Below are positions 4,888 through 39,269 of a stretch of 41,801 bases of DNA, piece after piece. Made by a program: the position numbers and the translations under genes. This DNA comes from Alphaproteobacteria bacterium UBA2947 (GTDB lineage: Bacteria; Pseudomonadota; Alphaproteobacteria; Rs-D84), in the NCBI GenBank assembly GCA_002348925.1, contig DEBV01000004.1, positions 1 to 41,801 on the forward strand. The letters run 5' to 3'. How positions within the stretch are numbered: the first letter of the stretch is position 1; each line of letters begins with the position of its first letter. Under the pieces are notes generated by a model. That model made no database searches, was not told where the DNA came from, and saw only the letters and a program-made list of their open reading frames with translations.

Positions 4888-4916
4888 TTTACAGCAAATC
4901 TTTTTTATGATAAAAT
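4888..4916 (+). promoter_or_regulatory. Sigma70-type promoter of the 4931 gene
   Basis: TTTACA (4888-4893), a 17-nt spacer, then TAAAAT (4911-4916) preceded by TG (TGaTAAAAT). The ATG at 4907 lies inside this promoter, which argues for the 4931 start. Confidence 0.5.
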
Positions 4917-4930
4917 TAAATGAAAGAGAG

Positions 4931-7033
4931 ATGAAGAATTTATCGCGCATTTTAACAGTATTACTCTGCTTTGCGCCTGTTGCGTACGCATCGGGTGCGC
5001 CTGTTGCAACAACTGCGGGGTCTAATTTAACTGCTTTTAACCCCAGCAATGCCAATAATAATCAGTGGGCAACTATGTCGAACGGACGTTATGATTCGGC
5101 AAATGCCCCAACTGCCAAGGCAGATTTTGGAAATTGTAATGCGTTGATTTTGCGCTGTGCACAACCAAAATGCAGTAATGGCGGTTGTTCAGAGGCATCT
5201 ATCGCTTCTGCGATTGTAAAGGGGTGTGTGCAATCCAATTCCAATTGTAAACAGTATGGCGATGATTTGGTTCAATATATGACTGCACAACTGGTTGCTT
5301 CATCAAACGCAAAGATAAACGAACAACAAGCGGCTGCGGCAAATGCGGCAGCAGAAGCGGCGCAACAACAATCTCAACAGCAGATGCAGCAAATGCAATA
5401 TCAGATGCAGCAGATGCAACAACAAATGGCACAACAGCAGGCTGAAAGCGCACAACAACTTCAAGAAGCGTTGGCACAACAGGCTGCACAAAATGCGGCT
5501 GCGATGGAAAGTATGAAATCTGCCGCAACAGATGCTGCCAAAGAAAACGAAGCGGGTGTATCGGCTTATCAACAAGAAGCAATTGACCGCGGAATTTCTG
5601 CAGATGTTATAGAGCGTCAAAAAATCACAGGTCAAATTATGACCGAAATTGAAAACGCCGAAGTATCGTTGAAAGAAGTCAAAGTTGCAATGAATAACGC
5701 GTTTGAATATGCGAAATGTGATGCGCGTGGAAATAATTGTTCTGGTCCAAAACGTGTAAAAAAATGGCGCGAATTGGCAACTGAATTTTTAGCCCCATAC
5801 GATAACACAATCGATAAAATCTATGATGCGCTGGTTATTGCTCAAACAGTGGGGATTGATTTATCGCAAATCTATATGATGCTTAACAATTCATGTAACC
5901 AATGGGGGCAATACCTTTGTCCGCAGATGAAAGATGGAATTGTTGTGTATCCTGATGTTGATACTGATTCTGACAAAAAACAAAAAACTTCACCAAAGGT
6001 TTGTGAAGGAGGGGATGAAAGTAAAAGATGTCGTCCGTGTACGTTGGTAAAGGTTTTAACAGAAAGCCAAGACGACCAAGATGCTGTTTATGCGGGTTGG
6101 GTAGATGCCGAATATTCAACAGACAATGGTAATACGACTGTTGTTGCGTGTGCGTCAGGTGCATTGAATTCTTCGAAATTGTTTGCGCGCAGAACAAAAA
6201 CCAAAAATGGCGCAGGCTTGGTTGATATAGATAAACTGGACACTTGGTTGCATCAGGTTGGAATTGATAAAACATATACAGATTTGTCTGTCAAACCCAC
6301 AAATTACTGTGGTGTGCTGTCAAGTTTAAAGGATGCTTTGACAAGGGCGGCTTTGGGTAAAAATATAGTTAAGGATCAGGCTTTATGTGTTTCAGACGTG
6401 GGGGGCACAGGACCAAAAGAAGACGAAAATTGCCCGTACATAAACCCGATATACGCAATTTGTGATACGCATCAGTATAATGCTAATGTGCCTGCTGGTC
6501 AGAAATTGAATTCTGATAAGATTGCAGAAATGAAAGAAATTATTGGTCTTAAAACCACTGTGATTTCACAACAGATGTATAAACAGTATGAATACCTTAA
6601 TGCGACATTGCGTCGTCTTAAAACTCAACTTGAAAAGGCGACGCTGACCGCAACATTGGAAGCCGCAGGTGCTAAATCCGAAGACGGTTCTTCATCTGGT
6701 GGTTTGCTGGGCAGTTCTTCGTCTAAGAATTCACAGTATGCAGATTGTTTTGGTAAAGATATTCAGAGTACTTTGTATTGTTTGCGTCAGAATTATGCGG
6801 CTTTGTCCAATCAAATAAACAATAAAAAATGTGATAAAAAAGCCAAGGCACAATTAAAGACAGACATCGGTCTAATAAATAGTTTGCTAACAAATGGTGT
6901 GACAGAATGTACAGATACTTCTTCAGTCGATAAATGTAGGGCTTGTCTTGGGTATTATAACGCAGGTTTGATTAAACTGGATGATGAAAATTTAGATCGC
7001 GAAGCTAAAAGACAAGGCAGATACAGAGATTAA
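4931..7033 (+). CDS. Large secreted Cys-rich / coiled-coil protein, family member B (700 aa), unknown function
   Basis: AAAGAGAG immediately upstream of ATG 4931. Signal peptide MKNLSRILTVLLCFAPVAYA|SG. Cys motif CNALILRCAQPKCSNGGC. Long Gln/Ala-rich predicted coiled coil (QQMQQMQYQMQQMQQQMAQQQ). Many paired Cys downstream. Confidence 0.9.
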   Translation: MKNLSRILTVLLCFAPVAYASGAPVATTAGSNLTAFNPSNANNNQWATMSNGRYDSANAPTAKADFGNCNALILRCAQPKCSNGGCSEASIASAIVKGCVQSNSNCKQYGDDLVQYMTAQLVASSNAKINEQQAAAANAAAEAAQQQSQQQMQQMQYQMQQMQQQMAQQQAESAQQLQEALAQQAAQNAAAMESMKSAATDAAKENEAGVSAYQQEAIDRGISADVIERQKITGQIMTEIENAEVSLKEVKVAMNNAFEYAKCDARGNNCSGPKRVKKWRELATEFLAPYDNTIDKIYDALVIAQTVGIDLSQIYMMLNNSCNQWGQYLCPQMKDGIVVYPDVDTDSDKKQKTSPKVCEGGDESKRCRPCTLVKVLTESQDDQDAVYAGWVDAEYSTDNGNTTVVACASGALNSSKLFARRTKTKNGAGLVDIDKLDTWLHQVGIDKTYTDLSVKPTNYCGVLSSLKDALTRAALGKNIVKDQALCVSDVGGTGPKEDENCPYINPIYAICDTHQYNANVPAGQKLNSDKIAEMKEIIGLKTTVISQQMYKQYEYLNATLRRLKTQLEKATLTATLEAAGAKSEDGSSSGGLLGSSSSKNSQYADCFGKDIQSTLYCLRQNYAALSNQINNKKCDKKAKAQLKTDIGLINSLLTNGVTECTDTSSVDKCRACLGYYNAGLIKLDDENLDREAKRQGRYRD

Positions 7034-8030: not shown

Positions 8031-10583
8031 ATGAGAAGATTTTCGTTATTCTTTTTCATGGTTGCTTTCGCTGCAACAAACGTGTTTGCGGCAGAGTCTT
8101 CTATATCCCGCACAATTCCAAATAAAAATGCAAGTGATGCAACAGAACGCGTTGAAACCAGTACTGCAAAAAATCGCAGCGCGCGTACCGTTTCGCGTAC
8201 CGCACCAAATGCAACAAAATCGTCCACTAAAACGGTAAATGTTGTATCACGCAGTGTAAATAATCGTAAAAATAATACTGGTTCTTCGTTGGGGGCGGCA
8301 GTAAACACTGTTGGGCGCAGTGCACGTACTGATGCCGCCAGTATTAACAGCAGTCCAGCACTTCGTCGTGCAGGTGTGACATTGCGTGCGTCTACTGCGG
8401 AAGTTGGTGGTCGTGCAACAATTGGAAATACAGGCATTCAAACAGGTTCTAATATTGATGAACAAGTTCGTGGTGTTCAATCGCGTGCGTCTATATTTGG
8501 GGGCGGTAAAAAAACAAATATTACCGCGGAATCTTTGGCAAATGCAAAAGACGTTTTGGAAAAAACATCTGATTTGAATAACACTTGTCAGCAACAATAC
8601 AACGAATGTATGGACCAGTTTTGTGCGGTTGTAGATGCAAACCAAAAAAGATGTTCTTGTTCTGCGAATTTGTCTAAATATTCCAAAGTTCAAAAGGCGG
8701 TGGAAGATGCAAATGCCGAATTAAACGATGTTGCACAACGTATCCGTTATGTTGGTTTGTCTGCTGATGAAATTCGTGCGATTATGTCTGCAACAGAGGC
8801 GGAATTGGAAATGTCCAAGACAAAAGACAGTACGCAAACCCGTTCTATGTTGGACGACATTGCCGAAATGTTGAAAGACCCAACTTCTTCTACAACTTTG
8901 ACTTCGTCAACAACTGCGGATTCTTTGTTGGATATGGATTTGGATTTTTCATCTGATTCATCAGATTTGTTTTCGCTTGATATTTTCAACACATCAAACA
9001 CAGACATTTCTTCTAAACGTGGCAAGGCTCTTTATAACGAAGCAAAAAAACGTTGCAAAACTGTTTTGAATCGCTGCAAAGATGCAGGCGGTACGGAAAG
9101 TCAAATTTCTGGCAACTATGATTTGGCAATTGATAAAGATTGTGTTGCGTATGAACAGGGTTTGGAAAAATTAAATGATACATTGAAAAACAATGTGCGC
9201 AGTGCGAATTTAATGTTGCAAAAGGCGCGCCTTGCGGTGTTGCAAAATAAAAACCAATACGGAATCAAAGAATGTGTGGCTGCGCTGGAAAATTGTATGC
9301 TGGACGACATGGTTTGTGGCGATGATTACATAAAATGCGTAGATCCAACCAAGATGTTTATTGATGAAAATGGCAAGGTTATATTGGGACGCAATATTGC
9401 AAACATAACCAATTCAATGACTGCGTATAACAACACAAATATAAATGCAGATTTTATCAAAAGTTCGGTTGGTGATACAACTTGTGCTAACCATGATGGT
9501 GCGTGTGTTGTGAATTATTTACTGACGAAAATTGGAACAGGGGCAACCGTCAAAGACGGTGGGCTTTGCCGCGCAGTATTGGATAAATGTCAAGATTACA
9601 CATATGTTCAAAACGGCAAAACATCAACATATAATCCGTACAATGATGTTATTGTAAATTATATTCAACGCGCAATGGTAAATATAAAATCTGCACAATC
9701 AAAGATAATTTCGAATTATGCAGCGAATTGTATGTCTGATGTTCAAGATTGCTACAGCCAACAAAACAGCCAGATTACATCGTGGACATCGGCTGCAACG
9801 ATAGACAATATCTATAAAGTTTTAACAGGAACTTGCTACAGCACCGCGTTAACCTGTGGTTATGCGGTCTTTGCGTATGATAAAGAAATGGGCAATGCCA
9901 TTAGCGATACTTCATTGCCTGAATCTGATAAACAATTAAAACTTATAGACGGTATTTCACAAATGTTCTATCAAACCATGTTATGTCCGGATAATTCTGA
10001 ATATGTTACAGAAACTACAGCTGGTATGGTTAACGACAGGTGTGCATGCAAGGCAGGGTATGTGGTTTCTGGGGGACAGTGTGTGGTGTCTTGTCCGACT
10101 GATAAATCAAAGAAGCTTTTTGGAACATGTACTGCACAATGTCCAACTGGTATGATAGAAAAAAATAATGAATGTTTGTTGAGTGTACATTCAGAAATTA
10201 GTAATGCGTTTTATTTTGCAGAAGTTGAAGGTGTTTGTGTTGGTTGGGAAGGCAATTCTACAATATGTAATAAAGATTTTCCGATTGTAGCCAGCTTTGA
10301 ATATGGTGATGTTTATGGAAAAACGAAGGCGGAACATCGTACTAGAACTTCTTATGGTTATAATCATGTTCCTTTCGAAGAGGAATACTATGACTGTTAT
10401 GCTAAGATAATAGAATATCATTCAAAGAATAGTGTTGTATATGGGTTAGGAGGTGACTGGGTCTATGTGGGAGAGGCGGATTTTTATTACCAGTGCCCAG
10501 ATATAGCCGCAGGTTATTTTCAAGATGAAGACATGTTAGGACGTTATTTTGGAAAATATGGCACAATGGAATGGCCTGAATAA
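8031..10583 (+). CDS. Large secreted Cys-rich / coiled-coil protein, family member C (850 aa), unknown function
   Basis: Signal peptide MRRFSLFFFMVAFAATNVFA|AE. Arg/Val/Ser/Thr repeat region (TVSRTA, VVSRSV, TVGRSA, GVTLRAS, GVQSRAS). Cys motif CQQQYNECMDQFCAVVDANQKRCSC aligns with member A. The C-terminal part adds CACKAGYVVSGGQC-type Cys repeats and an aromatic-rich terminal domain. Confidence 0.9.
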   Translation: MRRFSLFFFMVAFAATNVFAAESSISRTIPNKNASDATERVETSTAKNRSARTVSRTAPNATKSSTKTVNVVSRSVNNRKNNTGSSLGAAVNTVGRSARTDAASINSSPALRRAGVTLRASTAEVGGRATIGNTGIQTGSNIDEQVRGVQSRASIFGGGKKTNITAESLANAKDVLEKTSDLNNTCQQQYNECMDQFCAVVDANQKRCSCSANLSKYSKVQKAVEDANAELNDVAQRIRYVGLSADEIRAIMSATEAELEMSKTKDSTQTRSMLDDIAEMLKDPTSSTTLTSSTTADSLLDMDLDFSSDSSDLFSLDIFNTSNTDISSKRGKALYNEAKKRCKTVLNRCKDAGGTESQISGNYDLAIDKDCVAYEQGLEKLNDTLKNNVRSANLMLQKARLAVLQNKNQYGIKECVAALENCMLDDMVCGDDYIKCVDPTKMFIDENGKVILGRNIANITNSMTAYNNTNINADFIKSSVGDTTCANHDGACVVNYLLTKIGTGATVKDGGLCRAVLDKCQDYTYVQNGKTSTYNPYNDVIVNYIQRAMVNIKSAQSKIISNYAANCMSDVQDCYSQQNSQITSWTSAATIDNIYKVLTGTCYSTALTCGYAVFAYDKEMGNAISDTSLPESDKQLKLIDGISQMFYQTMLCPDNSEYVTETTAGMVNDRCACKAGYVVSGGQCVVSCPTDKSKKLFGTCTAQCPTGMIEKNNECLLSVHSEISNAFYFAEVEGVCVGWEGNSTICNKDFPIVASFEYGDVYGKTKAEHRTRTSYGYNHVPFEEEYYDCYAKIIEYHSKNSVVYGLGGDWVYVGEADFYYQCPDIAAGYFQDEDMLGRYFGKYGTMEWPE

Positions 10584-13439: not shown

Positions 13440-14723
13440 TTATTTTTTCTTTAACCACGCATCAAATAATTTACCGCTTACAGTTTTAACATTGCCCCAA
13501 ACTGTCTTGGTGTCGTTTTTCAATTTTTCACCAAAAGAATTATCTATTTTTCCACCAATACCTTTTGCCAGTTCGTCTGCTTTGCCACCCAGATAGAAAA
13601 CAATAGCACCACACAATATCATTGTCATTGCTGAACCAACTGCATAAGTGTTATTGCTGTCTATGGATATTATGTTTGTTAATAATGCTGCACATATCGC
13701 AATAACTATGGCCAGCGATACAAAATAAATTGCCGCATTTATAAATGCAGATATAATATCTGATAATTTTTTTGTGTTAAATACTTTTAATAGACCAGAA
13801 AATATTTGTCCTGCATAATTTGTTTCTTTGCTGCCAGGCATAGATTCTGCCAATGCGGTAAAAGGCAACATCAAAAGTTTTAAAAACAAATCTGCGACAA
13901 CACCAAGCGTCATAAACGCATATTTGAAAATGCAACCGATAAACATAACCATGCAAACCAAACCGACGATAACCATAGTCGCACTGTGTCCAAAACCGTT
14001 AATCATCCATTCAAATGCAGAAGCAGTTGCGTGATAGAAATATACAGACAAACGTGATGGTAAACACATTATATTTGCCGCAGCGTCTGGGTTGATTAAA
14101 AGTTTATCTGATGTGTTTGCATTAACATACTGATGAATTGTTGCACAAGTATCTGGAATATTAACATTATAAGTTTGTGCAACAGCACCCAAAATAAAAT
14201 CAGATAAATACACACCAAGCGACAGAATAGGTGTTATAACCATTGTGAACAATTTTGCAGGTCCATAATTTAACACAATTACCCAAATTGCAATAGTTAT
14301 GCCTTTGATAAATATATCATATAAAACAGTTTTATAATCTGTTGATTCGCGAATCATTCTGTATGCTTCCAATGCTATCCAAAAAGCATACATAACAAAC
14401 AAAAACCATATAACGAATCGCACCAAAGATATTTGTAAAACATAATCGATTGAAGATAGGGCCTTCATAAATACCAGTCCCAGTTTTACTTCCACAGGAA
14501 CAAAATTTGTTGAATGCAGATTTGTTTGAAAAGTTTGTTGAAAATTTTTTACATCATCGGACAAATCATTATTGTAAGTTTTCATATTGTCCAAAGTCAT
14601 CCAGTTGCCGTATTCGCCAACATCACCATTTGGAACGTTGCCTGCCGCGTATGTTGCACCAACAAATGCAGTCACGCAAAAAATACAAACTAATAAAAAT
14701 TTCAAAATTTTACGAATCTGCAT
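13440..14723 (-). CDS. Polytopic membrane protein, paralogue 1 of 5 (VirB6/TrbL-like architecture, unverified)
   Basis: Start taken at ATG 14723 (MQIRKILKFLLVCIFCVTAFVGATYA signal peptide), 1 nt after the stop of the upstream gene. The track start at 14798 would overlap that gene by 74 nt. About 7 hydrophobic helices. Loop Cys pair (DTC...IMC). Tail ...KTVWGNVKTVSGKLFDAWLKKK. Confidence 0.85.
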   Translation of the reverse strand: MQIRKILKFLLVCIFCVTAFVGATYAAGNVPNGDVGEYGNWMTLDNMKTYNNDLSDDVKNFQQTFQTNLHSTNFVPVEVKLGLVFMKALSSIDYVLQISLVRFVIWFLFVMYAFWIALEAYRMIRESTDYKTVLYDIFIKGITIAIWVIVLNYGPAKLFTMVITPILSLGVYLSDFILGAVAQTYNVNIPDTCATIHQYVNANTSDKLLINPDAAANIMCLPSRLSVYFYHATASAFEWMINGFGHSATMVIVGLVCMVMFIGCIFKYAFMTLGVVADLFLKLLMLPFTALAESMPGSKETNYAGQIFSGLLKVFNTKKLSDIISAFINAAIYFVSLAIVIAICAALLTNIISIDSNNTYAVGSAMTMILCGAIVFYLGGKADELAKGIGGKIDNSFGEKLKNDTKTVWGNVKTVSGKLFDAWLKKK

Positions 14724-14724
14724 T

Positions 14725-16185
14725 TTATTTTTCCTTGTCCATTTTTTCGCGAACTTTTTCATATATTTTAACAGGCGCATTATAAGCGGTTTTTCCAAAG
14801 TCTTTTACCCATTGACCATAATCAAAAGATTCTTTGCCTTCTGAGCCTAATATTTCGTCTACCTTTGGTGACACAACCCAGAAGTACAAGAAGAATACGC
14901 CAAACATAAATAACAAGAATTCAAATCCGTCATCCATGAAATCAAAAGCCCCAGGATATCTTTTTTCAACAATTGTTTTCTGAGTTTTAAAACATGCTGT
15001 GAATTTTTCTTTGTCCATTTCACCGTCAATCAAAGACACTTTTTCACATGTCGAAAACACATTCATAACAGACATTGTTTTTGCGTCCATGTTTTGTTTT
15101 GTTACATCAGAAAGCAGTGGTGGCAATATGCTGGTAAAACCATCTTCGGGGCCTGGATAGAATTCATCAGCAGCAAAATAAACGACCGCATATATGATTA
15201 CTATTTTTAAACTGATTTTTAATATGCTAATTGCAGAATCTATCAACATTTTTATGCCAGAATTTAACAAGCCCTTGGCCAGTCCCCAAACTTGTTCAAA
15301 TGCAGCGGCTGCAATTAAAAGCGGCATAAATATAATGATGAAAACTAATTTAAAGAAAACAGTTAATATCTTAAAGAATAAATCAAACCCAATAATCAGG
15401 AACATTATAACCAAAGCAAATCCAGCCAGCCATGTAAACATACCACCGACTTTTTCATTTAAATCCAGCCATGAATAATTCATCAGGGCAAAACCACCAC
15501 CTGCACCAGCCAACATAACAGTATTTAAATTACCGACTACACACATAAATGGGTGTAATACAGGTGTAAATATATCTTCGTCTTTATCCGAAATTTCTGG
15601 GATTTCACATTTTGCACCGCTTATAACACCTGTTGCCATCATGGAAAGATTTGTTCCAATATACATTACAGGTGTCACAGTTATATTTGTGACGGCTTTC
15701 AATGTTGTTGTTCCGCTCCAACTTAACGCACCAATTAAAGCGCCCGCAATTAAAACGCGTACACCTGTTTTCCAAACTTTTTCAAACCATTTTTTAAAAT
15801 CGAGTTTTGGTTCATTATCTGTTAAATCTTTTATATCTTTGGATGCGGCTTGTTCGCGAAAGAAAGAAAGTGTGTGAAAAATTAAAAATATGCCAAACCC
15901 AACCGCCATCAGTATCCATAAATTATGAACAATGCCGTTCCAGAACATTTCTGTCGCACGGCCCAGTACAGCAAACAAATCACCAAGATATGCACAAAGG
16001 AAACAGCCATTAACAGATGCAGCATCACCGTTGTTGCTGCCTATTTGTTGCATAAACGCATCAACGCTGGTGTATGAAAGAGACGCACCACCCAAAGAAT
16101 GACTTAAATACCAAATGCCAATACCCAACGCGATTGCGCCCATCAAAAATTTCAAGCCGTTTAAGATAAGCCATTTTTTTATCAT
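14725..16185 (-). CDS. Polytopic membrane protein, paralogue 2 of 5
   Basis: Its ATG overlaps the upstream TGA (ATGA). N-terminal anchor, CFLC motif before the first core helix, loop Cys pair (AKCEIP...FMC), clustered TM helices, tail ...YGQWVKDFGK...KVREKMDKEK. Confidence 0.88.
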   Translation of the reverse strand: MIKKWLILNGLKFLMGAIALGIGIWYLSHSLGGASLSYTSVDAFMQQIGSNNGDAASVNGCFLCAYLGDLFAVLGRATEMFWNGIVHNLWILMAVGFGIFLIFHTLSFFREQAASKDIKDLTDNEPKLDFKKWFEKVWKTGVRVLIAGALIGALSWSGTTTLKAVTNITVTPVMYIGTNLSMMATGVISGAKCEIPEISDKDEDIFTPVLHPFMCVVGNLNTVMLAGAGGGFALMNYSWLDLNEKVGGMFTWLAGFALVIMFLIIGFDLFFKILTVFFKLVFIIIFMPLLIAAAAFEQVWGLAKGLLNSGIKMLIDSAISILKISLKIVIIYAVVYFAADEFYPGPEDGFTSILPPLLSDVTKQNMDAKTMSVMNVFSTCEKVSLIDGEMDKEKFTACFKTQKTIVEKRYPGAFDFMDDGFEFLLFMFGVFFLYFWVVSPKVDEILGSEGKESFDYGQWVKDFGKTAYNAPVKIYEKVREKMDKEK

Positions 16186-17366
16186 TTATCTTTCTTGTCT
16201 TTATCTGCGCTTTCAGGGTTAATAATTATCTTTGCCATTTCTTTGGTTTTATTCGCAATAATTTTTGTTAATTGAAATACATTTTCTCCCATTTCTTTGG
16301 AAAGTTGATTTTCCTGTTTTATATTAAACACAGATAATATTTTTTCGGTCACTTTTGGAACTTGATCTGCAATATAATTTATAACATACACCAACACGAT
16401 TGCACCAGCAAAAGTTATCTGCATCGCGCTGGAATTTTCCAAATCAAAATCAAACAAAGATTCACTTGAATTGTGTATTGAATCCGCATCTACACCATTT
16501 GCATCTAAAAAGCCACGAATAATTAACATAATAACAGTGTATGTTAAAATTGTAGACACCACAGATACAATGGCGTTTATAAGTTTTTTTATTTGACCAC
16601 CACCAAGATTAGAACCTAAATTTTTCATCCAACCAGGTGCATCTGCTGCGCCCTTGAATATAAACAACACAAGCGATAACGGGAAAAAGAACGCAAACAT
16701 TGCCATTGCGAAAATAACATCCATAAAACAGAAAGAATATTTAATAAATAATTTTGCAAAATTATAAGTCAAAAATATTCCAATAAAACAAATAATGATA
16801 TGTTTTACAAGCGCACCAATACCAAGCAGTGCTTTAAGGTCAAACGCTGCGTCTATAATGCCAATACCGATTTTTATGTAAACTTGGAAGTTTGCAACAG
16901 AAGTTTCCAGTATTTGCATTATTGTGTCGCGTAATTCTGGATTAAAGAAACCGTTGTTGCCCAATTGAAGTGCGTTTTCGTATGCTGGTATCGCGTAATC
17001 TGCTGGCAACATCGCTTTTGAATATTGCAAAGTCATTACAGCCACTGGTTCAAAAGTAATTGTTGAAATAAATCGCGGGACTATTAAACCCATGCTTAAC
17101 AACGACAACGCAATCAAAGATTTTACCAACAATGGACGGATTGCTTTGTCAAACAAAGAATCTTTTGCGCCTGTTTTGATGTTCTGCCATACGATGTTTA
17201 ATATGTAAAATGCCAGCAATACACAGAATATAAGAACGCTGAAAATGCAAAGGCGTTGATATGCGGCGGCGGCAGTGTTCGAAATAATGGCGAACAGATT
17301 GTCAAACACAGGACATGTCCAACATTGAACACCAGAATCTATTAAAGAGTTTGCCAATTCTTGCAT
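16182..17366 (-). CDS. Polytopic membrane protein, paralogue 3 of 5
   Basis: Starts 3 nt after the upstream stop. CWTCPVF motif at residues 15-21 followed by a TM helix. Clustered TM helices. Lys/Asp-rich tail. Ends with TGA. Confidence 0.88.
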   Translation of the reverse strand: MQELANSLIDSGVQCWTCPVFDNLFAIISNTAAAAYQRLCIFSVLIFCVLLAFYILNIVWQNIKTGAKDSLFDKAIRPLLVKSLIALSLLSMGLIVPRFISTITFEPVAVMTLQYSKAMLPADYAIPAYENALQLGNNGFFNPELRDTIMQILETSVANFQVYIKIGIGIIDAAFDLKALLGIGALVKHIIICFIGIFLTYNFAKLFIKYSFCFMDVIFAMAMFAFFFPLSLVLFIFKGAADAPGWMKNLGSNLGGGQIKKLINAIVSVVSTILTYTVIMLIIRGFLDANGVDADSIHNSSESLFDFDLENSSAMQITFAGAIVLVYVINYIADQVPKVTEKILSVFNIKQENQLSKEMGENVFQLTKIIANKTKEMAKIIINPESADKDKKDK

Positions 17367-17369
17367 TTT

Positions 17370-18668
17370 TTATTTCTTTAGTTTTCCTGCAGTTTCCAAA
17401 ATCTTTTTTATTGCCCCAGGTGTCGCTTTCGCTTTGCCCCACATAACTTTTGCATCACCTGTTACTTTGTTATATAACCAGTGGTCTTTGGTTGTATACA
17501 TATCTAATCTTTGACGGGTCATGTCGAAAATGTTGTGCATTAAAAAGAAAGTTAGCAATGCAGATATCCACAATATAGAATGTTGGCCAAAATTCATAGC
17601 GCTGTTTGTGATAGATGGCACATTAGAAGTTGAAACACCGCCAGCCGCAACAACAAATACTGACGAAGACCAATTAAACAGTGCGCGAACCAGTGCAATA
17701 TTTACACACAATATAAACGCACATGCAATCATCGTGATAATAAGATTTTTCAACGCATCTATTATTTGTGAAAACACAGGCAATATATCAAACCATTTGT
17801 CTGATTTTTTTGCGACCCACGCCAACACATTAAACGGATACATTATAAGCGATAAACAAAAATCAAATATGGCCTGAATTATCAAAAGTGCCATAAACAC
17901 ATTGGCTGATATAAACGCGAACAGCAACAATATCCCGCTGACTATGTTTAATAAATCTTCGCCACCATGTGGTATCATTGTCATTAAACCGCGCAATCCA
18001 GTTTTAAGAAAATCAAAACCGTATTTTATAACTTTGTTGTTTTCTTGCGAGATTATATAGACAGGTTTTACCAAGAAATCACAACTGCGTTTTGAAATCC
18101 ATCCAGATTCTTCAATGGAAGCAGGACACGCAGGTGCGTCGCTTGCATCGATTGTCGATTTGTTAATATTTACCAAAATTTGTTCTGTATAAATAGACCC
18201 GAATTCCAAAAATGGGTTAACCAGCCATTCTGTCACATATACAGGTTTTATTTGCAACAACAATACCCCCGCGACAATCGCACGAATACATGGTTTCAAA
18301 ACATTTTCTGATATTTTCCAAGGGTCCGCTTTGCCATCAACCATTTCGCCACCGTCTGAAAATCCAAGAAACGACAGCCAATCTTTTGGAAAGTGCATCT
18401 TAATCAAATACAAGCAAATATAAAAAGCCAGAAACGCATAGATGAACAAATATACGATTCCGTCGCCTTTGCCCACAAAAAAGTTATACAAAGATGTTGC
18501 GATATTCATCATTGTTTCCAAGACCAGTGGAACAAATGGTGCCAAATTATATGCGTCTAATATGTTTGCATGTGCAGGCAATACAAAAAAAGCACACAGC
18601 ACAAACGCACTGAACAATATTCTGGTGCACGATAACAAGCGTGATAACAGGGCTTTTTTTATATACAT
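17370..18668 (-). CDS. Polytopic membrane protein, paralogue 4 of 5 (first gene of the operon)
   Basis: AAAGAGAGA precedes the ATG. Signal peptide ...FVLCAFFVLPAHA|NILD. Loop Cys pair (PACPAS...RSC). Tail ...KVMWGKAKATPGAIKKILETAGKLKK. Confidence 0.88.
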   Translation of the reverse strand: MYIKKALLSRLLSCTRILFSAFVLCAFFVLPAHANILDAYNLAPFVPLVLETMMNIATSLYNFFVGKGDGIVYLFIYAFLAFYICLYLIKMHFPKDWLSFLGFSDGGEMVDGKADPWKISENVLKPCIRAIVAGVLLLQIKPVYVTEWLVNPFLEFGSIYTEQILVNINKSTIDASDAPACPASIEESGWISKRSCDFLVKPVYIISQENNKVIKYGFDFLKTGLRGLMTMIPHGGEDLLNIVSGILLLFAFISANVFMALLIIQAIFDFCLSLIMYPFNVLAWVAKKSDKWFDILPVFSQIIDALKNLIITMIACAFILCVNIALVRALFNWSSSVFVVAAGGVSTSNVPSITNSAMNFGQHSILWISALLTFFLMHNIFDMTRQRLDMYTTKDHWLYNKVTGDAKVMWGKAKATPGAIKKILETAGKLKK

Positions 18669-18695
18669 TCTCTCTTTTTATTTCTTATTTACTGA

Positions 18696-18704
18696 ATTAT
18701 ATCA
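18696..18704 (-). promoter_or_regulatory. Extended -10 promoter element for the four-gene membrane-protein operon
   Basis: The reverse complement reads TGaTATAAT, ~28 nt upstream of the ATG at 18668. Confidence 0.45.
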
Positions 18705-18720
18705 CATTTAGAATAATTTA

Positions 18721-18729
18721 TGGTATAAT
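18721..18729 (+). promoter_or_regulatory. Extended -10 promoter element for the divergent fifth paralogue
   Basis: TGgTATAAT (18721-18729). The ATG at 18737 is 7 nt downstream with no SD, so the mRNA may be leaderless. Confidence 0.4.
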
Positions 18730-18736
18730 TAAAATT

Positions 18737-20029
18737 ATGAAAGCGTTAAAAAATTTTTGGTTGTGGTTTGTTGCACTGTTGCCATTTTCAGCATGGGGTG
18801 TCGCGCCATTTGTATTGGGGGGCGCAGCGGTAGGCGTTGGTATCATCGGGGTTTCAATATGGCGAACCGCTGCACCTGTCGATATGGCAAGCGCGCTTGA
18901 TTTCTTTACTTCGTGTTGGACATGTCAGATTTTTTCAGATGTTATGATTTCTATGTCTAATTTATTGCCAAAGGTTTATGCGGCACTGGGTCAGGTTATA
19001 ATACCAATGTCTGCGACTTTGTTGGCGATATTTATTGCGTGGAATTTATTGTCAAATGCGCTGAATAACAAGATGGAAAGTGGTTCTAAAATTATGGGGA
19101 ATTTTGGAACACATATTTTCAGATTAAGTGTTTTAGTTATATTGTTGGCATTGCCGTTGCCGCGGTTGATAACAAATGTGTTTATTGAACCTGCGCTGGT
19201 TGTTGGTACATCTTTTGATTATGTTGTTTCGGATAATAATAAATTTTCTGAATGTATGGTTGCAACAGCCATCGCAGATCCTGTATCTGTTTCTGCGGAT
19301 GCATCTGCATATGGGGCGTTTTCGCCAAAATTGCGACACCAACTTGCATGCGAAGTCGCAAATGTTCACCAGATAACAGGTCTTGGTATGAGTATTGGTT
19401 GGACAATAATGAATATGGCTTTTAATGCAGACTATATGCATAAAATATTGGCGAATATCCCAATCTTTCCAAATATACCGATTTTCTTTGTGGGACTTTT
19501 GATATTGGCGTTATATTTTTATGCGCTTTTGCCGATACCATTATATTTCTTGGAAGTGTTTGTAAAATTGGCTCTGGATTTAGTGATGTTACCACTGATG
19601 TTGATGTCTTGGATGTTTGATGATGAAAACTTTGCGATTTTCCCAAAAGGTGGCAAAACGATTCGCCAAATGATAGATGATGTAATCAAAGCTGTGGTTG
19701 GAATTGCACTGACAGTGGTATTTCTAGCATTTTCGATAATGTTTCTTAATGCAGCGTTTGGCAGTATCGAAGGTGTTAATATTTTGCAACAAGCAATTGT
19801 GAATAACGATTCGAAAATACTGATGGACGGCTTGCTTTTCCACAATGGCAGCATTATCACAGTGGTCTTGATGGGTATCTTTTTGGCGATGTTTATGACG
19901 ATGATACCGCAACTGACAAATATGTTGTTCAAGATACAAATATCAGATAAATACTATCAGACAGCAAAAAAAGACTTGGATATAATGTGGGAAAACATGA
20001 AAAAATGGGCGTCCGCAATAAAAAAATAA
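18737..20029 (+). CDS. Polytopic membrane protein, paralogue 5 of 5 (divergent)
   Basis: Start taken at ATG 18737 (MKALKNFWLWFVALLPFSA...). The track start at 18641 is a GTG inside the opposite-strand gene. CWTCQIF motif (18914-18925 encodes CWTC). Loop Cys pair (SEC...LAC). Tail ...DLDIMWENMKKWASAIKK. Confidence 0.85.
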   Translation: MKALKNFWLWFVALLPFSAWGVAPFVLGGAAVGVGIIGVSIWRTAAPVDMASALDFFTSCWTCQIFSDVMISMSNLLPKVYAALGQVIIPMSATLLAIFIAWNLLSNALNNKMESGSKIMGNFGTHIFRLSVLVILLALPLPRLITNVFIEPALVVGTSFDYVVSDNNKFSECMVATAIADPVSVSADASAYGAFSPKLRHQLACEVANVHQITGLGMSIGWTIMNMAFNADYMHKILANIPIFPNIPIFFVGLLILALYFYALLPIPLYFLEVFVKLALDLVMLPLMLMSWMFDDENFAIFPKGGKTIRQMIDDVIKAVVGIALTVVFLAFSIMFLNAAFGSIEGVNILQQAIVNNDSKILMDGLLFHNGSIITVVLMGIFLAMFMTMIPQLTNMLFKIQISDKYYQTAKKDLDIMWENMKKWASAIKK

Positions 20030-20094
20030 AAAATCAAGTGGTTTATTTAACAAAGTGCTCTTTTTTATCGCGTCCGAATCTGATATAATTCATC

Positions 20095-20607
20095 GTGATG
20101 AGTAAAATTCCGATTCTTTACTGGCCACACGAAACGAAAGGTAATAACGATTACCAACTTTCGCGCAAGGTTATAAACAGTCTGACTGGCCTTATGCCAG
20201 AGGTTGTTTTGGACGATTTGGATATAAGTGGAATTTTTGCAGACAAGAAAGACGCGGTTATTTATTATCCTGTGTTTTGCGAATCAACAGGCTGGTGGGG
20301 CGAATTATTGGGTGGCGATGGCGTCATCGTTGAAAAGATAATTGTTTCTCCAGAATGTCAGTTAATGGTTATTATGCCATCCGAAGTCGCAAATCTTCGT
20401 GGGAAAAATCAGTTATTGGCCGCAGAAATCAGACCTTCTAGCGGCTTTTTCAAGAAAATGAATTCGTCTATTGCTACTGTTTCTGATATGTTGGCAACGG
20501 ACGCAGGAACCATTTTGGCTTTGTTTTCTGGGAAAAACCAGAATCAGTTTATAAATGTTATTGAAAGCACTGGCAATTCATATTTGGGCTGTATCGGTCA
20601 ATATTAA
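20095..20607 (+). CDS. Hypothetical soluble protein (170 aa)
   Basis: Clean ORF with no TM segments and no motif I recognise. GTG 20095 or ATG 20098 lies 6-9 nt after a TATAAT (20084-20089). Confidence 0.6.
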   Translation: MMSKIPILYWPHETKGNNDYQLSRKVINSLTGLMPEVVLDDLDISGIFADKKDAVIYYPVFCESTGWWGELLGGDGVIVEKIIVSPECQLMVIMPSEVANLRGKNQLLAAEIRPSSGFFKKMNSSIATVSDMLATDAGTILALFSGKNQNQFINVIESTGNSYLGCIGQY

Positions 20608-20698: not shown

Positions 20699-20911
20699 AT
20701 GAAAAAAGGAATTCATCCAGAATATCACGAAATTAACGTGACTACAACCGACGGAAAAACAGTAAAAATGTATTCTTCTGTTAAAAAAGATTTGGTTTTA
20801 TCAACAGACAATTTGAATCATCCTGCATGGACTGGCCAACGCAGCAACGAAGGCGTGAAGGGCAAACGTGCCGCTGAATTCAAAAGCAAATTTGCTGGAT
20901 TTAATTTCTAA
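20699..20911 (+). CDS. rpmE: 50S ribosomal protein L31 (Cys-less form)
   Basis: MKKGIHPEYHEI...HPAWTG is canonical L31. It lacks the CxxC zinc ribbon. Confidence 0.95.
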   Translation: MKKGIHPEYHEINVTTTDGKTVKMYSSVKKDLVLSTDNLNHPAWTGQRSNEGVKGKRAAEFKSKFAGFNF

Positions 20912-27204: not shown

Positions 27205-27226
27205 ATGCCCGTTTGGGCATTTTTTA
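27205..27226 (+). terminator. Intrinsic terminator after murG
   Basis: ATGCCC(27205-27210) GTTT GGGCAT(27215-27220) followed by T5. Confidence 0.75.
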
Positions 27227-27276
27227 CTTGCCCACGATTCGTAATTTGTTCTATGATTAAACAAGGAAGGAAAGGA

Positions 27277-28524
27277 ATGAAATATTTTTCGTCATCTTTG
27301 ATTGCATATTTTGTTTGTGTAAATGCTGGGATTTGTGCGTATTTGCCAGTGGTTGATGTGTCACGTGGTGGTGTGTCTGCACGTGCGGCATTTGGCGAAG
27401 AAATCGTTCCTGAAAAAACGGTTGCGGTTGCACCTGTTCAAAAAAAAGAAAAAAAAGTTGTTGCACGTGTTGCGAAAAAAACAACTATGCCAATTGCGAG
27501 TGCTGATGTTTTAAAACCTAACCGCCCAAGTTCTGATTTGTGGGCACGCAATACTTCTGAAGTTTCTCTTCGCATGCCACGTATGGACGAAATTTCTGTG
27601 ATAAAATCAGAAGCGTTATTGCCAGAAGAATCTTTGATGGCAGAACCTGTAAAAATTGCAGAGGTAAAACAACAGCCAAACGAAACATTTGTTCAACGCG
27701 ATGAAGCGTTAAATGAATTAAAACAATTACGGGCAGAGGTTGCACGCCTTGCAAAAATGCAACAAGAATCTCAAATTGCAAATGCGCGTCCTATTTCTGT
27801 GCGCACGCCAATCGCAGGTGTTGCAAATGTTGCGCCAAAAGAAGTTTCTGAAACTGCACGCGAAGTAAATGTGCGTCGTAATGTTGTTTCTATGGATACG
27901 CCAAAACAGATTGCAAGTCGCAGCGTAAATAATGTTGCAGAACCAAAAACTGCATCTGTAAAAAATGAAATGACAAAGATGACGCCAAACGAATTGAAAA
28001 AAGCGTTCAAGAAAACTTATTTGTCAGAAAACAAACATTTATCAACATATCAAATAGATGATAAATTTGACGCAATAAGTGATATGTCTTTTGATACCGA
28101 AGGTTTCACTGCTGCACGCGATTTATCTGAAATGGAAGGTGGTGTTCGCCCAATGGAAATAAAAATATCTTTCCTTAATGGTGACAGCGGTTTATCACGT
28201 GATAATTATGATATTTTGACACAAACAGCATCCATAGTTGTAAATAATCCAAAGCGTGCAATTCAAATTGCAATACCAGAATCTGCAACGCATACAAAAG
28301 ATGCACGTAAATTAGCGGCTAAACGTTTAGCTATTGTTGAACAGGTTTTGCGCGATACAGGAATTGCAGATCAAAGAATTGTTCCTGTGTTATCACAACG
28401 CGATGATGACGTGTTTGTATTGCGTGTAATTTCTGGGGATACATTTGAATCTTTGCGTGAACAAAAACGCAATATGTTTGGTGATACTGTATCTACAAAA
28501 ACATACAAAAGTATGTCGTGGTAA
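27277..28524 (+). CDS. Secreted/anchored protein with long low-complexity linker and OmpA/MotB-like C-terminal domain
   Basis: ATG 27277 follows AGGAAAGGA. The track start at 27205 lies inside the murG terminator. N-terminal hydrophobic segment. Coiled-coil segment. The C-terminus ISFLNGDSGLSRDNYDILTQTASIV...RKLAAKRLAIVEQVLRDTGI resembles the OmpA_C peptidoglycan-binding fold pattern but is degenerate. Confidence 0.75.
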   Translation: MKYFSSSLIAYFVCVNAGICAYLPVVDVSRGGVSARAAFGEEIVPEKTVAVAPVQKKEKKVVARVAKKTTMPIASADVLKPNRPSSDLWARNTSEVSLRMPRMDEISVIKSEALLPEESLMAEPVKIAEVKQQPNETFVQRDEALNELKQLRAEVARLAKMQQESQIANARPISVRTPIAGVANVAPKEVSETAREVNVRRNVVSMDTPKQIASRSVNNVAEPKTASVKNEMTKMTPNELKKAFKKTYLSENKHLSTYQIDDKFDAISDMSFDTEGFTAARDLSEMEGGVRPMEIKISFLNGDSGLSRDNYDILTQTASIVVNNPKRAIQIAIPESATHTKDARKLAAKRLAIVEQVLRDTGIADQRIVPVLSQRDDDVFVLRVISGDTFESLREQKRNMFGDTVSTKTYKSMSW

Positions 28525-39200: not shown

Positions 39201-39269
39201 ATCACAACCCCACAGGCTGGTTTCTCAAAAACAGGGATGACATTCTTGGGGTGGAAGTTCGAAAAATAA
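36204..39269 (+). CDS. Giant secreted/surface repeat protein 1 (1021 aa): Listeria/Bacteroides-type repeats plus Cys-rich ephrin-receptor-like repeats
   Basis: SD AAAGGAAGGA. Signal peptide ...AFFALCLMSVSGTALA|YT. Flg_new/InlB-B-like units (LPTRTGWTFQGYYN...WYALW; WPGHTFKGFYT...LYAQF; QDGYGFTGKW; KTGMTFLGWKF). CxAGxYxxGxxCxxCxxGYYC units. Six [VL]S[AT]GY[YF]SxGG[GA] units. Confidence 0.92.
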   Translation: MLKIRNFFHVITGAFFALCLMSVSGTALAYTITLNASSATSQGTSSLDSTPVGAMVQGQSMSTTEHPITLPTRTGWTFQGYYNEGLDTTYISSSGYITTDGINTAKSLTGNTTWYALWRRDSNCSAGTYWTGSSCATCTTGYYCPNSTIVYNHTTNGAGRYACTSFRSNTITNGTGKTSKSDCLCKAGMYLSGSTCTTTSAGYYSGVDNSQTECSAGYYSTSGASSCSPVSAGYYTTGGGTSATPTANGNGCISTYSCGKVSAGYFSTGGATKSAPNSTAGGESGTGSNGCISGQTCGAVSAGYYNNGGGIKAEPQTSGEGCISGKSCGMLSAGYFSTGGAISATPNATVGGANASGMNGCVIGRCGLVSAGYYSTGGGTSATPKNADEGCLHIYSCGKVSTGYYSNGGGTSATPTSSGDCVSGRTCGYCNTWRTDTTTADAGGTGTSSCLCKAGMYLNSSNVCTTTETGYYSGISNDRSACSTWRSNTTTTSTGSTSSAACVCKAGMYLSGTTCTNASAGYYSGVSNTQTICSAGTYSTGGASACTDCNSTGYSGYTTASTGASAENMCKRDFTLWRFGATGTLTTTAGSVESGGSGNDKLVCTKGQNCYMPDSSKLSLDGWTFLGGWSQQSQPSSSPCTASFTANTSVSTSGADSLFPCAKPTVFTIPVTVIANGNTVKKGTQSLCYQLYRKDSTNEPSTTGTLVAKVYLNPNDPEPCTELGAEVTSSTQITIPTWPGHTFKGFYTNSTGGSNAISNTGYVQQGFLEGFYTSNYFSDPYSTNATNHQLYAQFETSNVQCAAGTFLVGLYGDCMTCSAGSYCPGGTYTSEDQENVGITVCGKNTYSGEGAASCTACASGYGISDNGTNAQYHNSKYQCTASITLNKNGGSGDITVYSNPVGGTTNAAITCHQDEVCSFPSTSGLTQDGYGFTGKWSKTENCSDGGATSFTNPTGTYYACKTANPITIKWIDVGTAGSGFTAVSGEANAYTSIVSFNGNITTPQAGFSKTGMTFLGWKFEK
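36243..36638 (+). repeat. 396-nt near-identical segment shared by the two giant genes (copy 1)
   Basis: Base-by-base comparison with 39454-39849 shows the same length and only scattered substitutions. The remainder of the two genes is far more diverged. Confidence 0.85.
36882..37493 (+). repeat. In-frame degenerate tandem coding repeats (six units of ~26-38 aa)
   Basis: Repeating C-x-S-G-x-x-CG-x-[VL]S[AT]GY[YF]S-x-GG[GA]-x-[SK]A-x-P read from the translation. Confidence 0.8.

What the first reader, a model, noticed from the sequence alone, without database searches (positions are those of the whole stretch)
13440..20029. Tandem array of five paralogous polytopic membrane proteins with VirB6/TrbL-like architecture and no partner secretion genes
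Seen in sequence: five consecutive genes of 394-486 aa, each with roughly 6-8 hydrophobic helices by eye. They lie at 13440-14723, 14725-16185, 16182-17366 and 17370-18668 on the - strand, and at 18737-20029 on the + strand. The four - strand genes are translationally coupled (3-nt gap, ATGA overlap, 1-nt gap). The fifth gene diverges from a 68-bp shared control region. All five share one layout: an N-terminal signal or anchor, a first core helix, a hydrophilic loop of ~60-110 aa, a cluster of helices, and a Lys-rich tail. They therefore look like paralogues rather than unrelated membrane genes. Established knowledge: a large periplasmic loop followed by clustered TM helices and a cytoplasmic tail is the VirB6/TrbL layout. 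Tandem amplification of virB6 to 4-5 copies is a hallmark of the Rickettsiales rvh type IV secretion system. Inference: this may be an rvhB6-like array. However, it is not preceded by virB3/virB4, no other T4SS gene lies in these 42 kb, and the proteins are much shorter than RvhB6 proteins. The alternative is an undescribed multi-subunit envelope complex, possibly tied functionally to the Cys-rich secreted families in the same window.
Basis: partly seen in the sequence, partly recalled or inferred. Interest (0 to 1): 0.85.

Follow-up and report, generated by a model that had tools for sequence, protein, structure and literature searches.

The report
Five divergent VirB6-like membrane paralogues
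A tiny-genome gut bacterium (Candidatus Enterousia) keeps five unannotated, very divergent copies of VirB6, the inner-membrane base protein of type IV secretion machines, in one tight gene cluster with no other secretion gene nearby; VirB6 works as a ring of five, so the five copies may form one mixed ring.

Summary
Five ORFs sit exactly where stated, with the stated gaps and overlap. All five are under strong purifying selection (dN/dS 0.05-0.10). All five occur as single-copy orthologues in every one of about 70 Enterousia-type genomes with enough flank.

Profile comparisons show they are true paralogues, not just hydrophobic look-alikes. None hits Pfam TrbL/VirB6 (PF04610) directly. Three independent indirect lines still point to VirB6:
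- 24 of 59 distant relatives hit PF04610, in the region that aligns with M5 residues 230-345.
- The relatives' profile ranks R388 TrwI/VirB6 first or second in the PDB.
- Two AlphaFold models of M5 both return TrwI/VirB6 chains as the top Foldseek hits (probability 1.00, TM 0.51-0.57).

The array is not a Rickettsiales-type rvhB6 locus. It has no virB3/virB4 synteny, and no T4SS gene was found in any held flank. Whole genomes could not be inspected.

Similar Pfam-dark arrays of three to five paralogues occur in other gut alphaproteobacterial lineages.

Best reading: a new, deeply divergent VirB6 subfamily forming an equimolar hetero-oligomer, probably a heteropentamer. Whether it serves a dispersed T4SS or something else remains open.

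The parts
17370..18668 (-). M4, first gene of the four-gene operon; 432-aa polytopic VirB6-like paralogue without the CxxC motif
   Evidence: ORF. Ortholog profile matches M1 (E=1.5e-9) and M5 (E=4e-6). dN/dS 0.07-0.09. Present in all loci with enough flank.
16182..17366 (-). M3, 394-aa VirB6-like paralogue. It begins directly at the CWTC motif (17313-17324) and has no N-terminal anchor.
   Evidence: Strongest paralogue link, M3-M5 E=6.5e-13 local and 7.5e-18 global. The start follows the M4 stop after 3 nt.
14725..16185 (-). M2, 486-aa VirB6-like paralogue with a CFLC motif (15994-16005), the longest central loop (134 aa) and an extra C-terminal loop
   Evidence: ATGA overlap with M3. Linked to M1 at E=4e-7. 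Recruited by jackhmmer.
13440..14723 (-). M1, 427-aa VirB6-like paralogue, last gene of the operon and the fastest-evolving member
   Evidence: (38-88% identity across loci). The start lies 1 nt after the M2 stop.
18669..18736 (.). 68-bp divergent intergenic region between M4 and M5. It holds an extended -10-like TGGTATAAT at 18721-18729, 7 nt before the M5 ATG.
   Evidence: Sequence and a consensus scan only. Function is not shown.
18737..20029 (+). M5, 430-aa VirB6-like paralogue, the most conserved of the five. CWTC motif at 18914-18925. The core motif LDLVMLPLMLMSWMF (about residues 279-294) aligns with the GPLFILALIW / GPLILTGYIF motif of TrwI and A. tumefaciens VirB6.
   Evidence: Distant relatives carry PF04610 in the region aligned to M5 230-345. 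AF2 models with Foldseek top hits TrwI/VirB6. Motif alignment.
20098..20607 (+). Conserved 169-aa soluble protein of unknown function, always immediately downstream of M5 in Enterousia. Whether it belongs to the system is uncertain.
   Evidence: Present next to M5 in 79 of 80 loci at 59-94% identity. No Pfam match and no PDB sequence relative. Absent near the arrays of other lineages.

Best explanation
The five genes encode a deeply divergent, so far unannotated subfamily of the VirB6/TrbL inner-membrane protein of type IV secretion systems. Its mark is an N-terminal C-W-x-C motif, present in M2, M3 and M5 and in most distant relatives.

Shown: the five are true paralogues. Each is a single-copy core gene under strong purifying selection across the reduced-genome gut order Rs-D84 (Candidatus Enterousia). 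Four are translationally coupled, and the fifth diverges from the same 68-bp region. Their fold and topology match VirB6.

Inferred: all five are indispensable and are set up for equimolar synthesis, and VirB6 forms a C5 pentamer at the base of the T4SS stalk. The five paralogues therefore most likely assemble into one hetero-oligomer, probably a heteropentamer with one protomer of each kind. This would form an inner-membrane platform or channel base.

Further inferred, with less confidence: this platform belongs to a T4SS-type envelope-spanning apparatus whose other genes lie elsewhere in the ~0.9-Mb genome, as T4SS genes are dispersed in Rickettsiales. This metabolically dependent bacterium would use it to exchange macromolecules with a partner cell.
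For: Paralogy: hhalign E-values of 1e-6 to 1e-13 with clean controls, and jackhmmer closure over all five families.

VirB6 affinity rests on four lines:
- An M5 ortholog profile found only 112 proteins among 1.84 billion. Of the 59 longer distant hits, 24 match PF04610, with a best E of 2.6e-10, and no other family is matched by more than 2 members. P0181 scores 34.5 bits against a gathering score of 25.9. All these matches use model positions ~75-210, which align with M5 ~230-345.
- The consensus of the whole superfamily has TrbL as its top Pfam hit (E=8.1e-5).
- Profiles of the relatives rank R388 TrwI first or second among 177,635 PDB sequences (E=0.03-0.04).
- Two independent AF2 models of M5 (pLDDT 51 and 67.5) both give TrwI/VirB6 chains as the top Foldseek hits. 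Probability is 0.96-1.00, TM is up to 0.57 over about 345 columns, and every other hit has TM<=0.18.

Topology is the same as in TrwI and A. tumefaciens VirB6: 2 TM helices, a loop, 3 or more TM helices, and a tail.

Non-redundancy and stoichiometry: all five genes are retained in every locus with enough flank. dN/dS is 0.05-0.10. Coupling junctions are confirmed.

Five-fold logic: VirB6 is a pentamer in the R388 stalk (PMC9259494). Five-member arrays recur in other lineages (L083, L084-L086, L089). Rickettsia has five rvhB6 paralogues (PMC8035066).

Lifestyle: Rs-D84 genomes are under 1 Mb, lack standard transporters and are thought to depend on partner cells (PMC12306168).
Against: No member of the array matches PF04610 or any Pfam or NCBIfam family, and neither do the ortholog consensus sequences.

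Direct profile comparison with single canonical VirB6 sequences is not significant. Foldseek and PDB E-values are only 0.03-0.07.

No VirB4, VirB11, VirB8-10 or VirD4 was found in the window, in 80 orthologous loci, or in 23 loci of distant relatives. The one exception is a coupling protein 5 kb from the array in L093/L094.

In relatives, the conserved neighbours of the arrays are Pfam-dark soluble proteins and a double-HTH regulator, not T4SS parts.

Some related lineages carry three or four paralogues rather than five. One-to-one orthology between the five-member arrays of different lineages is not evident. No oligomeric state was tested.
Confidence: 0.55

Rival explanations
1. An exapted VirB6-derived complex. 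The five paralogues descend from VirB6 but now form an envelope complex that works without a T4SS, for example a membrane channel or anchor for nutrient or lipid uptake or for cell-cell contact. In relatives, the Pfam-dark neighbours would be its partners.
For: The array is never adjacent to virB3/virB4 in any lineage sampled. It sits in a housekeeping neighbourhood (uvrD, rpmE, suhB, PBP1A, dcw genes) and behaves as a core gene set. Relatives share a conserved non-T4SS neighbourhood. A published genome analysis of the order does not mention any secretion system (PMC12306168). The sequences have diverged beyond Pfam recognition, which fits a changed function.
Against: To my knowledge, no VirB6/TrbL homologue is known to act outside a T4SS. 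T4SS genes are dispersed in other reduced alphaproteobacteria (PMC7648143), so local absence proves little. A bona fide VirD4/TraG coupling protein lies 5 kb from the array in L093/L094. Whole genomes were not inspected.
Confidence: 0.3
2. Alternative, interchangeable platforms. Each paralogue forms its own homo-oligomer, giving five variant machines or substrate specificities used under different conditions.
For: This possibility has been raised for the Rickettsia rvh paralogues (PMC8035066). M5 is transcribed separately from the other four. Related lineages work with three or four paralogues.
Against: Four genes are translationally coupled with 1-4-nt junctions, which favours fixed co-expression. 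No lineage among about 70 informative loci has lost any of the five. Purifying selection is equally strong on all five. A tiny genome would be unlikely to retain five redundant genes.
Confidence: 0.1
3. Not VirB6 at all. This is an unrelated family of polytopic membrane proteins, such as a transporter, and its VirB6 similarity is an artefact of hydrophobic helices.
For: No direct PF04610 hit. Marginal E-values to TrwI. Helical membrane proteins often give spurious profile and fold matches. The first AF2 model was of low confidence.
Against: Four independent methods converge on the same single family, with no competing family. PF04610 matches in 24 relatives all fall on the same model region and the same aligned region. 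Foldseek separates TrwI (TM 0.5-0.57, probability 1.0) from all other hits (TM<=0.18). Controls with reversed profiles and with MraY/FtsW are negative. No transporter family matches.
Confidence: 0.05

Closest known systems
TrwI/VirB6 of plasmid R388 (PDB 7O3V, 8RT9, 8RTD) and A. tumefaciens VirB6; Pfam PF04610 TrbL/VirB6
   Same: The order of elements is the same: two N-terminal helices, a large loop, a cluster of hydrophobic helices and a cytoplasmic tail. It is the best and only convincing structural match. The core motif around an invariant Pro is shared: M5 LVMLPLMLMSWMF, TrwI GLGPLFILALIW, VirB6 AIGPLILTGYIF. Distant family members reach PF04610.
   Different: No direct Pfam match. The proteins are about 100-150 aa longer, with an extra N-terminal anchor, a C-W-x-C motif and a Lys-rich rather than Ala/Gly-rich tail. 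There are five divergent chromosomal copies instead of one plasmid-borne gene, and the array is not embedded in a virB operon (versus 10, 11).
Rickettsiales rvh T4SS virB6/rvhB6 paralogue arrays (5 copies in Rickettsiaceae, 4 in Anaplasmataceae)
   Same: Tandem arrays of four to five highly divergent VirB6 paralogues in a reduced alphaproteobacterial genome. The paralogues are about 80% divergent from one another. The host is dependent on other cells. T4SS genes need not lie at one locus (PMC8035066, PMC7648143).
   Different: Rickettsiales arrays lie in one operon directly after virB3-virB4, and each paralogue carries a recognisable TrbL/VirB6 domain (PMC7648143). Neither holds here. [quoted passage not shown] None of the relatives whose source names were looked up was named VirB6 by its source. 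Specific kinship to RvhB6 could not be tested, because no RvhB6 sequence was available here.

Membership tests
Pfam PF04610 TrbL/VirB6 | Sequence match to the family HMM at or above the gathering score (25.9 bits) | tested here: not met
   M1-M5 give 0 families at E<=10. Ortholog consensus sequences give no hit. The superfamily consensus scores 22.9 bits, E=8.1e-5, below the cut-off. Only distant relatives reach it: P0181 at 34.5 bits, and 24 of 59 relatives at E<=0.01.
VirB6 fold (TrwI in the R388 stalk) | Structural similarity of the whole chain to TrwI/VirB6 | tested here: met
   Two AF2 models give TrwI chains as top Foldseek hits. Probability is 0.96-1.00, the TM-score normalised by target is 0.51-0.57, and about 345 columns are aligned. 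All other hits have TM<=0.18. Caveats: model pLDDT is only 67.5, and E-values are 0.03-0.07.
VirB6 fold (TrwI in the R388 stalk) | Topology: two N-terminal helices, a large central loop, three or more clustered hydrophobic helices, and a cytoplasmic tail | tested here: met
   Kyte-Doolittle profiles of M1-M5, TrwI and A. tumefaciens VirB6 side by side. No dedicated topology predictor was available.
VirB6 as a T4SS component | Encoded with, or co-occurring with, VirB4 and the other T4SS core genes | tested here: inconclusive
   None was found in the window, in 80 orthologous loci (1.55 Mb held) or in 23 loci of relatives, except one VirD4/TraG in L093/L094. The rest of the genomes could not be read with these tools.
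VirB6 as a T4SS component | Pentameric assembly at the inner-membrane base of the stalk | not testable with these tools
   No multimer prediction or experiment was possible. The pentamer is known for TrwI (PMC9259494). The count of five here is only circumstantial.
Rickettsiales rvhB6-type array | Four to five tandem divergent virB6 paralogues | tested here: met
   Five paralogues, arranged 4+1 divergently.
Rickettsiales rvhB6-type array | Operon synteny virB3-virB4-virB6(n) | tested here: not met
   The flanks are uvrD on one side and the 170-aa ORF, rpmE and suhB on the other, in the window and in orthologous loci. tblastn with VirB3 and VirB4 is negative.
Rickettsiales rvhB6-type array | Each paralogue carries a recognisable TrbL/VirB6 domain and several have large extensions (PMC7648143, PMC8035066) | tested here: not met
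   No PF04610 hit. Lengths are 394-486 aa. Longer forms (up to 1018 aa) occur only in distant relatives.

The most novel reading that the evidence does not exclude
A VirB6-derived heteropentameric inner-membrane machine that works without any canonical T4SS (no VirB4 ATPase) and is a core organelle of reduced-genome gut alphaproteobacteria (Rs-D84 and relatives). Together with the Pfam-dark neighbours seen in related lineages, it would form a previously undescribed apparatus for taking material from, or attaching to, partner cells.
Probability: 0.25. Interest if true: 0.85.

Novelty: new variant of a known kind. Interest (0 to 1): 0.62.

Why it matters
How multi-paralogue VirB6 sets are used is an open question in Rickettsiales T4SS biology (PMC8035066). 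The only structural fact that bears on it is that VirB6 forms a five-fold ring (PMC9259494).

This study finds a second group of lineages with arrays of exactly five. They are compact and translationally coupled, and every one of the five genes is retained across more than 100 species. That makes the idea of 'one ring, five different protomers' concrete and testable, by AlphaFold-Multimer, co-evolution analysis or heterologous co-expression of proteins of only about 400-490 aa.

The work also assigns a fold and an ancestry to five of the conserved 'hypothetical membrane proteins' of Candidatus Enterousia. This organism is widespread in ruminant, horse, chicken and human guts, and how it obtains metabolites from other cells is unknown (PMC12306168).

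If complete genomes prove to lack VirB4, this would be the first VirB6 relative working outside a T4SS.

Tried and rejected
- Direct family searches of M1-M5 found nothing real. Pfam gave no hit and NCBIfam gave only a sub-threshold YhgE/Pip hit.
- tblastn of M5 and of the bridging protein P0170 against 72,556 plasmids found no match.
- hhalign of each M profile and of the superfamily profile against single TrwI and A. tumefaciens VirB6 sequences was not significant, although both aligned at the same Pro motif. jackhmmer did not reach the two canonical sequences.
- A homologue search with the 59-sequence alignment A2 returned only its own first sequence and wasted one capped search.
- A Pfam scan of 104 non-syntenic flank ORFs from Enterousia loci showed only housekeeping families among the 25 listed. 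The list was truncated, so this is uninformative for T4SS.
- Profiles of the conserved neighbours in relatives found no PDB relatives and no homologues in Enterousia loci.
- The idea that the N-terminal anchor of M5 is a fused copy of the small 2-TM ORF seen inside related arrays, or that this ORF is VirB2/VirB3-like, got no statistical support.
- The 170-aa neighbour has no Pfam or PDB relative and is absent near arrays in other lineages.
- Literature searches for T4SS in Rs-D84/RF32 and for a VirB6 heteropentamer proposal found nothing in the held library. The one genomics paper on the order holds no supplementary tables here.
- The link to the Cys-rich proteins is rejected on synteny.

Full report
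**Observation.** The five ORFs exist exactly as described: M1 13440-14723(-), M2 14725-16185(-), M3 16182-17366(-), M4 17370-18668(-) and M5 18737-20029(+). They encode 427, 486, 394, 432 and 430 aa, and each has an ATG start. On the minus strand the junctions are a 3-nt gap (M4/M3), an ATGA overlap (M3/M2) and a 1-nt gap (M2/M1). M4 and M5 diverge from a 68-bp spacer. Hydropathy profiles confirm a common plan: two early helices, a hydrophilic loop of 57-134 aa, a cluster of helices, and a tail with 8-10 Lys in the last 40 residues. M3 alone lacks the N-terminal anchor.

**Genomic setting.** The surroundings are ordinary chromosome:
- The 3' end of 23S rRNA and 5S rRNA lie at the window start.
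- An RNase T-like exonuclease and uvrD lie to the left of the array.
- A 170-aa unknown ORF, rpmE, a suhB-like phosphatase, PBP1A and mraY-ftsW-murG lie to the right.

**The genes are real and constrained.** M5 has hundreds of close homologues, all labelled hypothetical and without Pfam domains. They come from gut and rumen alphaproteobacterial MAGs, including Candidatus Enterousia. A scan of one genome per species found relatives in 141 stretches, and 80 loci were fetched. In every locus with enough flank, all five genes are present in the same order and orientation, followed by the 170-aa ORF and suhB, at 38-93% protein identity. dN/dS against three relatives is 0.05-0.10 for each of the five, the same as for uvrD. 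One of these genomes is a closed circle of 958,618 bp (L036). According to PMC12306168, the order (Rs-D84) has genomes under 1 Mb, no respiration and no standard transporters, and it presumably depends on other cells.

**The five are paralogues.** Pairwise BLAST gives only weak, collinear similarity. Profiles built from 69-80 orthologues of each gene are clearer. hhalign links M3-M5 (E=6.5e-13), M1-M4 (1.5e-9), M1-M2 (4e-7), M1-M3 and M1-M5 (1e-6) and M4-M5 (4e-6) over about 280-350 columns (local mode). Reversed-profile controls never beat 2.8e-4, and MraY and FtsW score 0.04 or worse. jackhmmer started from M5, with E-values computed for a nominal database of one million sequences and an inclusion threshold of 1e-6, recruits all orthologues of M1-M4. 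M2, M3 and M5 share a motif just before the first core helix (CFLC in M2, CWTC in M3 and M5). M1 and M4 lack it.

**What the family is.** None of the five hits any Pfam family at E<=10, including PF04610. The M5 ortholog profile, searched against 1.84 billion representative proteins, found only 112 proteins at E<=1e-3, so the family is small. Its distant members are 400-1018 aa long. Four independent lines then point to VirB6.
- *Pfam on distant relatives.* Of the 59 longer distant hits, 24 match PF04610 TrbL/VirB6, with a best E of 2.6e-10, and no other family is matched by more than two. In the members examined singly, the match always uses model positions ~75-210 and always falls inside the stretch aligned to M5 ~230-345. 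One of them, P0181, passes the gathering score at 34.5 bits.
- *Consensus sequence.* The consensus of the whole superfamily has TrbL as its best Pfam hit (E=8.1e-5, 22.9 bits, just under the cut-off). The Enterousia-only consensus does not hit.
- *PDB sequences.* Profiles of the distant members rank R388 TrwI/VirB6 first or second among all PDB sequences, at E=0.03-0.04. The alignment places the invariant Pro of the family on the GPLFIL motif of TrwI. The same spot is chosen independently in A. tumefaciens VirB6.
- *Predicted structure.* A first AF2 model of M5 (22 sequences, pLDDT 51) and a second (99 sequences, pLDDT 67.5, pTM 0.61) both return TrwI/VirB6 chains of the R388 stalk as the top Foldseek hits. 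Probability is 0.96-1.00, and the TM-score normalised by target is up to 0.53 and 0.57 for the two models. About 345 columns cover the whole TrwI chain. Every other hit has TM<=0.18.

Individually these lines are marginal, but they converge on a single family with no competitor. I therefore accept remote VirB6/TrbL ancestry (about 0.8) while noting that formal Pfam membership fails.

**It is not a Rickettsiales-type locus.** In Rickettsiales the four or five virB6 paralogues follow virB3-virB4 in one operon, and each carries a recognisable TrbL domain (PMC7648143). Rickettsia has five rvhB6 paralogues, about 80% divergent, some with large extensions (PMC8035066). Here there is no virB3/virB4. 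tblastn with all R388 and pTi T4SS proteins found nothing in the window plus 80 loci, 1.55 Mb in all, though largely the same syntenic region. I could not read the rest of any Enterousia genome, so a dispersed T4SS is neither shown nor excluded.

**Relatives elsewhere.**
- A contig with 30% G+C (L083) carries five consecutive paralogues of 770, 781, 857, 474 and 650 aa between housekeeping genes, four of them with a KCWxC motif.
- A metagenome scan gave 23 further loci with G+C of 38-57%. Four of them have five tandem paralogues (L084, L085, L086, L089). Others have three or four.
- L084 and L089 are collinear one-to-one. Orthology between these arrays, L083 and Enterousia is not resolvable, so the five-fold state may be ancestral or convergent.
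- These lineages share a conserved neighbourhood. A divergent upstream gene occurs in 12 loci. A ~330-aa double-HTH_3 regulator follows the array in 9 loci. Three further proteins follow it. All except the regulator are Pfam-dark and without PDB sequence relatives. None has a homologue in the Enterousia loci held.
- The only recognisable T4SS gene near any array is a VirD4/TraG coupling protein 5 kb upstream in L093/L094 (PF02534, E=1.3e-56).

**Mechanism.** In the R388 T4SS, VirB6 forms a pentamer in the inner membrane that carries the VirB5 pentamer and is proposed to be the pilin assembly site (PMC9259494).
- The Enterousia set consists of exactly five non-redundant paralogues. Four have start and stop codons 1-4 nt apart, an arrangement that favours equimolar synthesis.
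- The most economical reading is therefore a heteropentameric VirB6-like ring. This step is inferred, not shown.
- Whether the ring serves a dispersed T4SS (my preference, about 0.45-0.5) or has been exapted into a T4SS-independent complex (about 0.3) depends on a genome-wide VirB4 search that I could not run.
In rearranged genomes those genes move with uvrD and exo, not with the array.

**Verdict.** This is a new, strongly divergent variant of a known kind (VirB6/TrbL), unannotated in the public sources checked and restricted to little-studied gut alphaproteobacteria. It bears directly on the open question of how multi-paralogue VirB6 sets are used.

Noticed in passing
window 20098-20607 (+): A 169-aa soluble protein of unknown function always follows M5 in Enterousia genomes, at 59-94% identity, often more conserved than the M proteins. 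It has no Pfam or PDB relative and is absent next to arrays in other lineages.
   Followed up: partly
window 18721-18729 and 20081-20089: Extended -10-like boxes (TGGTATAAT and TGATATAAT) end 7 nt before the M5 ATG and 8 nt before the ATG of the 170-aa ORF (5 nt before the alternative GTG). No Shine-Dalgarno sequence is evident, which suggests leaderless mRNAs. This rests on pattern matches only.
   Followed up: no
window 2680-4824, 4907-7033, 8031-10583, 36204-39269, 1289-1702 (all +): Five secreted-looking proteins have an N-terminal signal-like helix, 8-53 Cys and Ser/Thr-rich stretches, with essentially no Pfam match (one sub-threshold TFIIA hit for 4907-7033). The 850-aa one is syntenic with exo/uvrD in most relatives but is not linked to the array.
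   Followed up: partly
window 27205-28524 (+); L083 17448-18929: A 439-aa protein after murG, with an N-terminal TM helix, has no Pfam match. It is homologous (28% identity over 221 aa, E=2e-19) to the protein encoded immediately downstream of the five-paralogue array in L083, which has a faint OmpA hit on record. Both end in K(S/A)M(S/N)W.
   Followed up: partly
L084-L102 (e.g. L084 5418-6164(-), 16071-17078(+), 17267-22580(+)): In other lineages the VirB6-like arrays sit in a conserved neighbourhood. It comprises a divergent upstream ~210-340-aa gene (12 loci), a downstream ~330-aa regulator with two HTH_3 domains (9 loci), and three further Pfam-dark proteins (800-1270 aa, ~300-640 aa, and ~410-510 aa with a signal peptide).
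   Followed up: partly
L084 ~13800-14140, L085, L089, L093, L098, L100 (gap before the last paralogue); L083 6361-6621: A small ORF of 55-97 aa with two hydrophobic helices and a basic tail lies inside or just before the arrays in several lineages. There is no significant similarity to VirB2, VirB3 or the M5 N-terminus.
   Followed up: partly
L093 2096-4435 (-) and L094: A bona fide T4SS coupling protein (VirD4/TraG; PF02534 1.3e-56, TrwB_AAD_bind, TraG-D_C) lies 5 kb upstream of a three-paralogue array. Four Pfam-dark genes lie in between.
   Followed up: partly
window 20699-20911 (+): An unlisted small ORF (70 aa) beginning MKKGIHPEY looks like ribosomal protein L31 (rpmE), identified from memory of that protein's N-terminus. 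It fills the apparent gap between the 170-aa ORF and the suhB-like gene.
   Followed up: no
L081 6127-7155 (RefSeq R388 trwI): The RefSeq translation of TrwI differs from the PDB chain over about 10 residues (IIIPAGYGPAGAIGG versus IIILLATGLLAAIGG). This looks like a compensated frameshift in one of the records.
   Followed up: no
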